Assembly: GCF_013122565.1 (NCBI RefSeq) | Contig: NZ_CP053258.1 | From: Escherichia coli | Lineage (GTDB): Bacteria > Pseudomonadota > Gammaproteobacteria > Enterobacterales > Enterobacteriaceae | Direction: 5' to 3' (one strand) | Length of the DNA stretch: 64,000 nucleotides | Part shown: positions 59,961 through 60,146 of the stretch, one piece after another | Layout: every line of letters starts with the position of its first letter | How positions within the stretch are numbered: position 1 is the first letter of the stretch | The notes under the pieces: generated by a model | The model's database searches: none | Told to the model about the DNA's origin: nothing | Seen by the model: the letters and a program-made list of their open reading frames with translations, nothing else | Position numbers and translations under genes: made by a program

Positions 59961-60146
59961 AAGTTATCCTTACAATGTGTTTATCGCTTGCTAAGCATCG
60001 AGTGCGACGGAAATGCCAGAATAGCACTCTCCTGCATACACGCACCGATAGCCACTTTTTTTCGCCCCCCAAATGTAGACCAGACGGGGGGCGAAAGGGA
60101 AGACTCCAGGTACGACAAATCAGGCGTTAAATCACGTTTTCTGGTC

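What the first reader, a model, noticed from the sequence alone, without database searches (positions are those of the whole stretch)
60044..60078. GC-rich 9-bp inverted repeat between hupA and yjaG that is not a classical terminator
tcgcccccc-N16-ggggggcga forms a strong stem, but it is preceded by a T-run and followed by A-rich sequence on the plus strand, so neither transcript has a U-tract after the hairpin. It sits about 100 bp upstream of hupA and could be a protein-binding site or RNA-processing element in the hupA promoter region.
Basis: seen in the sequence. Interest (0 to 1): 0.2.

Follow-up and report, generated by a model that had tools for sequence, protein, structure and literature searches.

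The report
Inverted repeat overlying the hupA promoter
The GC-rich inverted repeat upstream of hupA is real, but it is the already-mapped core promoter of the HU-alpha gene (C-rich spacer, -10 box in the "loop", G-rich start region) and not a terminator or conserved RNA structure, so it is ordinary.

Summary
The repeat exists but is mis-placed by about 17 nt. The perfect repeat is TTTCGCCCCCC-N15-GGGGGGCGAAA at window 60060-60070 / 60086-60096: 11-bp arms and a 15-nt spacer, not 9 bp and 16 nt. yjaG and hupA are both on the minus strand.

Published mapping puts the hupA transcription start 105 nt before the ATG, at window 60065. SMRT-Cappable-seq gives 60066. Both lie in the G-run of the hupA-proximal arm. 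The "loop" therefore carries the -10 hexamer TACATT. The G-run is the discriminator plus +1. The C-run is promoter spacer. A weak -35 (TTCCCT) abuts the distal arm.

In 87 genomes of Enterobacteriaceae, Erwiniaceae and Dickeya:
- TACATT and the start region are invariant.
- No base pair shows a compensatory change.
- Pairing equals the shuffled expectation.
- Only 8 genomes keep the perfect 11-bp repeat.

Published Term-seq tables list no 3' end at the hairpin, and single long reads run from nudC through yjaG into hupA. So it is not a terminator, and hupA mRNA cannot contain the hairpin.

The G/C-rich discriminator probably makes the promoter sensitive to supercoiling and ppGpp; this is inferred, not tested. 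Verdict: known promoter, low interest.

The parts
60086..60096 (-). Arm distal to hupA. Read on the minus strand it is TTTCGCCCCCC, at -31 to -21 of the hupA start. It forms the upstream part of the promoter spacer. Its outer TTTCG varies between species and its C-run is about 96% conserved.
60071..60085 (-). The 15-nt 'loop' GTCTGGTCTACATTT, at -20 to -6. It is nearly invariant (mean identity 0.999) in 53 distinct Enterobacteriaceae sequences.
60072..60077 (-). hupA -10 hexamer TACATT, at -12 to -7. It ends 6 nt before the mapped start and is identical in all 53 distinct sequences.
60060..60070 (-). Arm proximal to hupA. Read on the minus strand it is GGGGGGCGAAA, at -5 to +6. It comprises the discriminator G-run, the start nucleotide and the first transcribed bases.
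60065..60066 (-). hupA transcription start. Position 60065 is -105 from the ATG (Kohno 1990, Claret 1996 and 5'-RACE in Mendoza-Vargas 2009). Position 60066 is MG1655 coordinate 4200175 from SMRT-Cappable-seq.
60096..60101 (-). Putative -35 hexamer TTCCCT (3 of 6 matches, 18-bp spacer). The same position reads TTCACA (5 of 6) in Kluyvera, Dickeya and Erwinia.
59961..60065 (-). The 105-nt hupA 5' UTR. Its conserved positions average about 98% identity.
59688..59960 (-). hupA coding sequence (HU-alpha, 90 aa).
59639..59660 (-). The real intrinsic terminator of hupA. It is a 9-bp stem with a 4-nt loop and a T-tail. Published 3' ends map to MG1655 4200605, which is window 59636.
60147..60737 (-). 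yjaG coding sequence (DUF416), the upstream gene on the same strand. Transcripts from it read through the repeat.

Best explanation
The inverted repeat is the core sigma-70 promoter of hupA seen as a palindrome. Read on the hupA (minus) strand, the order is:
- a weak -35 (TTCCCT)
- an 18-bp spacer that begins with the C-run (the distal arm)
- the -10 hexamer TACATT, inside the so-called loop
- a G-rich discriminator TGGGGG followed by the initiating G (the proximal arm)
- the first transcribed bases, CGAAAAAAA

RNA polymerase binds here and starts hupA mRNA inside the proximal arm. The abundant monocistronic hupA mRNA therefore never contains the hairpin.

The complementarity between the C-run and the G-run is a by-product of two separately constrained promoter segments. 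In Escherichia it happens to extend to 11 perfect pairs.

Shown: the position of the start, the invariance of the -10 and start region, the absence of covariation, the absence of listed 3' ends at the hairpin, and read-through.

For: Position of the transcription start:
- Table 1 of Mendoza-Vargas 2009 lists hupA p1 at -105. This is the known value (Claret 1996; Kohno 1990) and was re-found exactly by their 5'-RACE.
- SMRT-Cappable-seq Supplementary Data 1 gives 52 (M9) and 45 (rich) 5'-triphosphate reads starting at 4200175, with the termination site at 4200605 and only b4000 covered.
- These map to window 60065/60066, inside the G-run. The K-12 intergenic sequence is identical to the window.

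Promoter geometry:
- TACATT sits at -12 to -7.
- The consensus scan finds TTCACA-18-TACATT as the only promoter-like site at the homologous position in Kluyvera and Dickeya.

Conservation:
- The -10 hexamer is identical in 53 of 53 distinct sequences.
- G81, G82 and CGAAA are invariant.
- The distal outer arm averages only 72% identity.

Pairing is not selected:
- 0 compensatory pairs. 78.5% of cells pair, against 78.8% in shuffles.
- Only 8 of 87 genomes keep 11 pairs. In 45 of 87 the longest uninterrupted Watson-Crick run is 5 bp or less.

Not a terminator:
- The scan does not call it.
- The Term-seq tables list no 3' end at MG1655 4200170-4200199.
- Transcripts containing b3996 to b4000 exist.

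General rule linking G/C-rich discriminators to supercoiling and stringent control: PMC8422995 and PMC9221221.
Against: - The E. coli -35 matches the consensus at only 3 of 6 positions, and the scan did not call the promoter in the window.
- The C-run is about 96% conserved although spacer sequence is usually free to vary. Promoter geometry alone does not explain this, so an overlapping constraint cannot be excluded.
- The supercoiling and ppGpp part is inference. I found no hupA-specific data in the papers I could read.
- The two start-site sources differ by 1 nt.
Confidence: 0.88

Rival explanations
1. RNA hairpin acting on read-through transcripts. In nudC-hemE-nfi-yjaG-hupA RNA the stem-loop forms in the yjaG-hupA spacer. 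There it would act as a leaky terminator, a barrier to 3' exonucleases, or a processing site such as an RNase III site that separates the upstream message from hupA.
For: - The predicted RNA hairpin is strong in E. coli: -26.6 kcal/mol, z = -3.6.
- Read-through molecules that contain the repeat exist.
Against: - There is no U-tract and the loop is 15 nt.
- The Term-seq tables list no 3' end at the hairpin under any condition they cover.
- There is no covariation. G-to-A changes in the G-run and changes in the distal arm go uncompensated.
- Median MFE across 87 genomes is only -14.3 kcal/mol.
Confidence: 0.05
2. DNA cruciform sensor. Under negative supercoiling the repeat extrudes a cruciform that hides the -10 hexamer. 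HU, which binds cruciforms with high affinity, binds it, giving autoregulation of hupA or a supercoiling switch.
For: - There are perfect 11-bp arms with an AT-rich centre. Single-strand DNA hairpins fold at -14.0 and -13.3 kcal/mol, z = -5.4 and -4.1.
- High-affinity binding of HU to cruciforms is stated in bioRxiv 10.1101/2021.06.17.448862 (abstract).
- The title of Kohno 1990, as I recall it, reports autogenous control of hupA and hupB.
Against: - A 15-nt spacer means about 15 bp must stay unpaired on each strand, which makes extrusion energetically costly (inference from established cruciform energetics).
- The arms are eroded to 5 bp or fewer uninterrupted pairs in about half of the genomes.
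- There are no compensatory changes.
- Promoter function explains the conservation without any need for pairing.
Confidence: 0.03
3. Palindromic operator for a dimeric transcription factor, with one half-site in each arm.
For: - The sequence from the C-run to about +30 is almost invariant.
- The C-run is conserved more than a spacer normally would be.
Against: - The half-site centres are 26 bp apart, about 2.5 helical turns, so they lie on opposite faces.
- The outer half of the distal arm is only 72% conserved while its partner is invariant, so the symmetry is not maintained.
- No regulator with such a site is known to me.
Confidence: 0.04

Closest known systems
hupA promoter (hupAp / p1) of E. 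coli K-12, mapped by Kohno et al. 1990 and Claret & Rouviere-Yaniv 1996 and re-mapped by Mendoza-Vargas et al. 2009 (PMC2760140) and Yan et al. 2018 (PMC6131387)
   Same: It is the same locus. The K-12 sequence is identical to the window. The published start at -105 falls inside the repeat.
   Different: Nothing differs in sequence. The papers I could read do not mention that the core promoter is a perfect 11-bp inverted repeat.
[quoted passage not shown]
   Same: There is a G/C-rich discriminator (TGGGGG, 5 of 6 G/C) between the -10 hexamer and +1, a sub-optimal -35, a purine start, and a highly expressed growth-phase gene. Fis is reported to activate hupA (PMC9221221).
   Different: The spacer is 18 bp rather than the short 16 bp typical of stable-RNA promoters. 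No hupA-specific ppGpp or relaxation response was retrieved here.
Intrinsic (Rho-independent) terminator
   Same: It has a GC-rich stem-loop downstream of a gene (yjaG) on the same strand.
   Different: The loop is 15 nt. The stem is followed by an A7 tract rather than a U-tract. No 3' ends are listed there, and transcripts read through.
REP/BIME and ERIC intergenic palindromic repeats
   Same: It is an intergenic, GC-rich palindrome in an enterobacterial genome.
   Different: It occurs once per genome, always at this locus, and has no Rfam match.

Membership tests
Sigma-70 promoter | -10 hexamer with A at position 2 and T at position 6, ending about 6-7 nt before the start | tested here: met
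   TACATT at window 60077-60072 (minus) is at -12 to -7 of the mapped start, and is identical in 53 of 53 distinct sequences.
Sigma-70 promoter | -35 hexamer 16-18 bp upstream of the -10 | tested here: inconclusive
   E. coli has TTCCCT (3 of 6 matches, 18-bp spacer), which is below the scan threshold. The same position is TTCACA (5 of 6) in Kluyvera, Dickeya and Erwinia, and the scan calls it there.
Sigma-70 promoter | Experimentally mapped primary (5'-triphosphate) transcript start | tested here: met
   Taken from published tables. The start is at -105 by nuclease mapping or primer extension and by 5'-RACE. Cappable-seq reads start at MG1655 4200175.
Promoter with G/C-rich discriminator (stringent and supercoiling-sensitive class) | [quoted passage not shown] | tested here: met
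   TGGGGG is 5 of 6 G/C. Variants are TGGAGG, TGTGGG and similar.
Promoter with G/C-rich discriminator (stringent and supercoiling-sensitive class) | Repression by ppGpp/DksA or by DNA relaxation | not tested
   No hupA-specific data were found in the readable papers.
Intrinsic terminator | GC-rich stem with a short loop (3-8 nt) | tested here: not met
   The stem is GC-rich but the loop is 15 nt. The scan does not call it.
Intrinsic terminator | U-tract immediately 3' of the stem | tested here: not met
   The minus strand has A7 after the stem and the plus strand has AAAGGG.
Intrinsic terminator | Transcript 3' ends at the site | tested here: not met
   No Term-seq 3' end is listed at MG1655 4200170-4200199. 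Long reads span b3996 to b4000.
Conserved structured RNA element | Base pairs maintained by compensatory substitutions | tested here: not met
   0 of 11 pairs show a change on both sides. Seven pairs depart only by unpaired cells. Pairing is 78.5%, against a shuffle mean of 78.8%.
Conserved structured RNA element | Match to a described RNA family | tested here: not met
   Rfam returned only chance-level hits with E > 2.
REP/BIME/ERIC repeat | Many copies per genome | tested here: not met
   The median is one place per genome in 5,420 E. coli genomes.
Cruciform-forming inverted repeat | Long perfect arms with a short spacer, and extrusion under supercoiling | not testable with these tools
   The arms are 11 bp in Escherichia, but the spacer is 15 nt and the arms are eroded elsewhere. 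Extrusion needs wet-lab probing.

The most novel reading that the evidence does not exclude
In Escherichia the hupA core promoter has become a perfect 11-bp inverted repeat. This repeat could extrude as a cruciform, or form a hairpin on one strand, under high negative supercoiling. HU, a cruciform-binding protein, would then recognise it, giving structure-based autoregulation of its own alpha-subunit gene.
Probability: 0.03. Interest if true: 0.5.

Novelty: already known. Interest (0 to 1): 0.08.

Why it matters
The practical value is as a caution. A strong, statistically unusual hairpin in an intergenic region can simply be a promoter whose C-rich spacer and G-rich discriminator happen to be complementary. 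Strong sequence conservation of such a hairpin is not evidence for structure unless pairs covary.

For hupA itself, the analysis gives base-level coordinates for the -35, spacer, -10, discriminator and +1. It shows these are fixed across Enterobacteriaceae, Erwiniaceae and Dickeya. It also points to the discriminator G-run, whose only variable positions are -4 to -2, as the likely tuning point of HU-alpha expression.

Tried and rejected
- **Rfam scan of 59500-60400 at E up to 10:** only chance hits.
- **Terminator and promoter consensus scan of the window:** the repeat is not called as a terminator. The real promoter is missed because the E. coli -35 is weak.
- **Repeated-element idea (REP/BIME/ERIC):** rejected, because the repeat is single-copy.
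- **Structured-RNA idea:** rejected, because there is no covariation.
- **My own first guesses at the promoter:** I considered TATTCT at 60023-60018 with the A7 tract as an UP element, TATGCA, and TATCGG. All were discarded once the published start at -105 was found.
- **Literature on yjaG plus hupA, and on the hupA promoter with CRP or Fis:** nothing useful in the held library.
- **Further start-site tables:** Thomason 2015 is not held. Conway 2014 has no supplements held. The Kim 2012 supplements have no hupA entry.
- **hupA response to ppGpp:** Sanchez-Vazquez 2019 is not held, and the other hits were uninformative.
- **Taxonomic reach:** the one genome-contig scan returned only YjaG relatives of at least 90% identity. 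Protein search and contig look-ups extended this to Erwiniaceae and Dickeya. Yersinia, Serratia, Proteus and Vibrio were not reached.

Full report
**1. Observation**

The window is E. coli chromosome; the stretch is 99.6% identical to K-12 BW25113. In this region hemE, nfi, yjaG (60147-60737), hupA (59688-59960) and yjaH all lie on the minus strand.

The only inverted repeat in the yjaG-hupA spacer is TTTCGCCCCCC / GGGGGGCGAAA at 60060-70 / 60086-96. It has 11 perfect pairs and 15 nt between the arms. It lies at 60062-60094, not 60044-60078, and the spacer is 15 nt, not 16.

Neither strand has a U-tract after the stem.

The hairpin is thermodynamically unusual:
- As RNA: -26.6 and -25.6 kcal/mol, z about -3.7.
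- As DNA: -14.0 and -13.3 kcal/mol.

Perfect repeats of this size are rarer in Markov-simulated sequence (0.35 per window) than in the real window (8).

It matches no Rfam family. It occurs once per genome in 5,420 of 5,426 complete E. coli genomes, always unannotated.

**2. What it is**

Table 1 of Mendoza-Vargas et al. 2009 (PMC2760140) lists hupA p1 at -105 from the ATG. This is both the previously known value (Kohno 1990; Claret 1996) and the value from their own 5'-RACE, a perfect match.

Independently, SMRT-Cappable-seq (Yan et al. 2018, PMC6131387, Supplementary Data 1) records 52 (M9) and 45 (rich medium) 5'-triphosphate reads that start at NC_000913.3 position 4200175. The termination site is 4200605 and only b4000 is covered.

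The hupA ATG is at 4200281 (from the Term-seq table), which is window 59960. These starts therefore correspond to window 60065 and 60066 on the minus strand, the last two G of the G6 run. The K-12 intergenic sequence is identical to the window.

Read on the hupA strand, the repeat resolves into promoter parts:

| Element | Sequence | Window (minus strand) | Position relative to +1 |
|---|---|---|---|
| -35 | TTCCCT | 60101-60096 | -36 to -31 |
| Spacer (18 bp), containing the distal-arm C-run | C-run CCCCCC | 60095-60078; C-run 60091-60086 | -30 to -13; C-run -26 to -21 |
| -10, inside the "loop" | TACATT | 60077-60072 | -12 to -7 |
| Discriminator | TGGGGG | 60071-60066 | -6 to -1 |
| Start | G | 60065 | +1 |
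| First transcribed bases | CGAAAAAAA | from 60064 | from +2 |

The primary hupA mRNA begins inside the proximal arm, so it cannot form the hairpin.

**3. Comparative evidence**

A scan of one genome per species with YjaG gave 80 loci, 78 of which kept both genes. With the window this makes 79 yjaG-hupA spacers, 73 of them exactly 186 nt long.

Protein search and contig look-ups added Dickeya, three Erwiniaceae genera (Erwinia, Pantoea, Paramixta), Atlantibacter, Cronobacter and Mangrovibacter.

Per-position identity over 53 distinct 186-nt sequences:

| Segment | Mean identity |
|---|---|
| -10 hexamer | 1.00 |
| Whole "loop" | 0.999 |
| CGAAA (+2 to +6) | 0.996 |
| 5' UTR | 0.98 |
| C-run | 0.96 |
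| G-run | 0.91 (variation only at -4 to -2) |
| Outer half of the distal arm | 0.72 |

The -35 position reads TTCCCT, TTCACA, TTCCCA or TTCCAT. Where it is TTCACA (Kluyvera, Dickeya), the consensus scan returns TTCACA-18-TACATT as the single promoter-like site.

Testing the 11 pairs on 30 distinct sequences gave the following:
- No pair has changes on both sides.
- Seven pairs depart only through unpaired cells.
- 78.5% of cells pair, against 78.8% after shuffling partners.

Typical changes are GGGGGG to GGAGGG, GGGAGG or GTGGGG with no C-to-T opposite. The distal TTTCG is replaced by TTCCG, ATCTG, ATTGG, ATTAG and similar opposite an invariant CGAAA.

Only 8 of 87 genomes keep all 11 pairs: Escherichia species, one Citrobacter, Enterobacter soli and one MAG. 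In 45 of 87 the longest uninterrupted Watson-Crick run is 5 bp or less. Median hairpin MFE is -14.3 kcal/mol.

So the sequence is under strong selection and the pairing is not.

**4. Not a terminator**

- The scan does not call it. It does call the true hupA terminator at 59660-59639.
- The Term-seq tables of Adams et al. 2021 (PMC7815308) list 3' ends at 4200251/3, 4200389 and 4200605. They list none between 4200170 and 4200199 in any condition.
- SMRT-Cappable-seq Supplementary Data 3 lists transcripts containing b3996|b3997|b3998|b3999|b4000. Single RNA molecules therefore run from nudC through yjaG and across the repeat into hupA.

**5. Mechanism**

Shown: this is where RNA polymerase starts hupA transcription.

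Inferred: the G/C-rich discriminator and sub-optimal -35 put hupA in the class of promoters whose open-complex formation is limiting. Such promoters respond to negative supercoiling and to ppGpp/DksA. The general rule is described in PMC8422995 and PMC9221221. The latter also cites Fis activation of hupA.

I found no hupA-specific test of this.

The high conservation of the C-run inside a spacer is not fully explained by promoter geometry. It may reflect spacer effects on twist or an overlapping factor.

**6. Rivals**

- An RNA hairpin acting on read-through transcripts: 0.05.
- A supercoil-extruded cruciform bound by HU: 0.03.
- A palindromic operator: 0.04.

None is excluded by direct experiment. 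All are disfavoured by the lack of covariation, the asymmetric decay of the arms and the 15-nt spacer.

**7. Verdict**

The repeat as such has no demonstrable function. It coincides with a promoter mapped since 1990. Novelty: already known. Interest: low.

Noticed in passing
window 59961-60065 (minus strand): The 105-nt hupA 5' UTR is about 98% identical across 53 distinct sequences from many enterobacterial genera. This is far more than the ~30 nt next to the start codon that pair with the sRNA RaiZ (PMC5391140). The few variable positions (60022, 60019, 60018) fall in the loop of a small predicted hairpin, GUGC-N7-GCAU.
   Followed up: partly
window 59988-59990 (minus strand; MG1655 4200251/4200253): Published Term-seq tables list low-level 3' ends 28-30 nt upstream of the hupA ATG, inside the region that pairs with RaiZ. 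These could be processing or RNase III products.
   Followed up: no
L082 1792-2102 (Dickeya fangzhongdai yjaG-hupA spacer): The spacer is 311 nt instead of 186 nt. A ~125-nt insertion in the hupA 5' UTR closely matches the ERIC repeat primer sequences as I recall them (GAATCCCCGTGAGCTTAC and AGTAAGTGAATGGGGTGAGCG). The promoter and the last 57 nt of the UTR are kept.
   Followed up: partly
window 60132-60140 (minus strand): The motif AAAACGTGA, just after the yjaG stop codon, is invariant. It lies about -75 to -67 from the hupA start and resembles a CRP half-site (TGTGA). The matching right half is poor.
   Followed up: no
window 59636-59681 (minus strand): The hupA terminator hairpin and its mapped 3' end (MG1655 4200605) lie inside the annotated start of yjaH. 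In SMRT-Cappable-seq, 13 of 52 reads (M9) pass through this terminator.
   Followed up: no
L039 (contig CACSKA010000020.1): A contig labelled Chryseobacterium sp. 18061 carries a yjaG-hupA locus whose intergenic spacer is identical to that of Citrobacter sp. 18056 (L036). This is probably contamination or mislabelling of the assembly.
   Followed up: no
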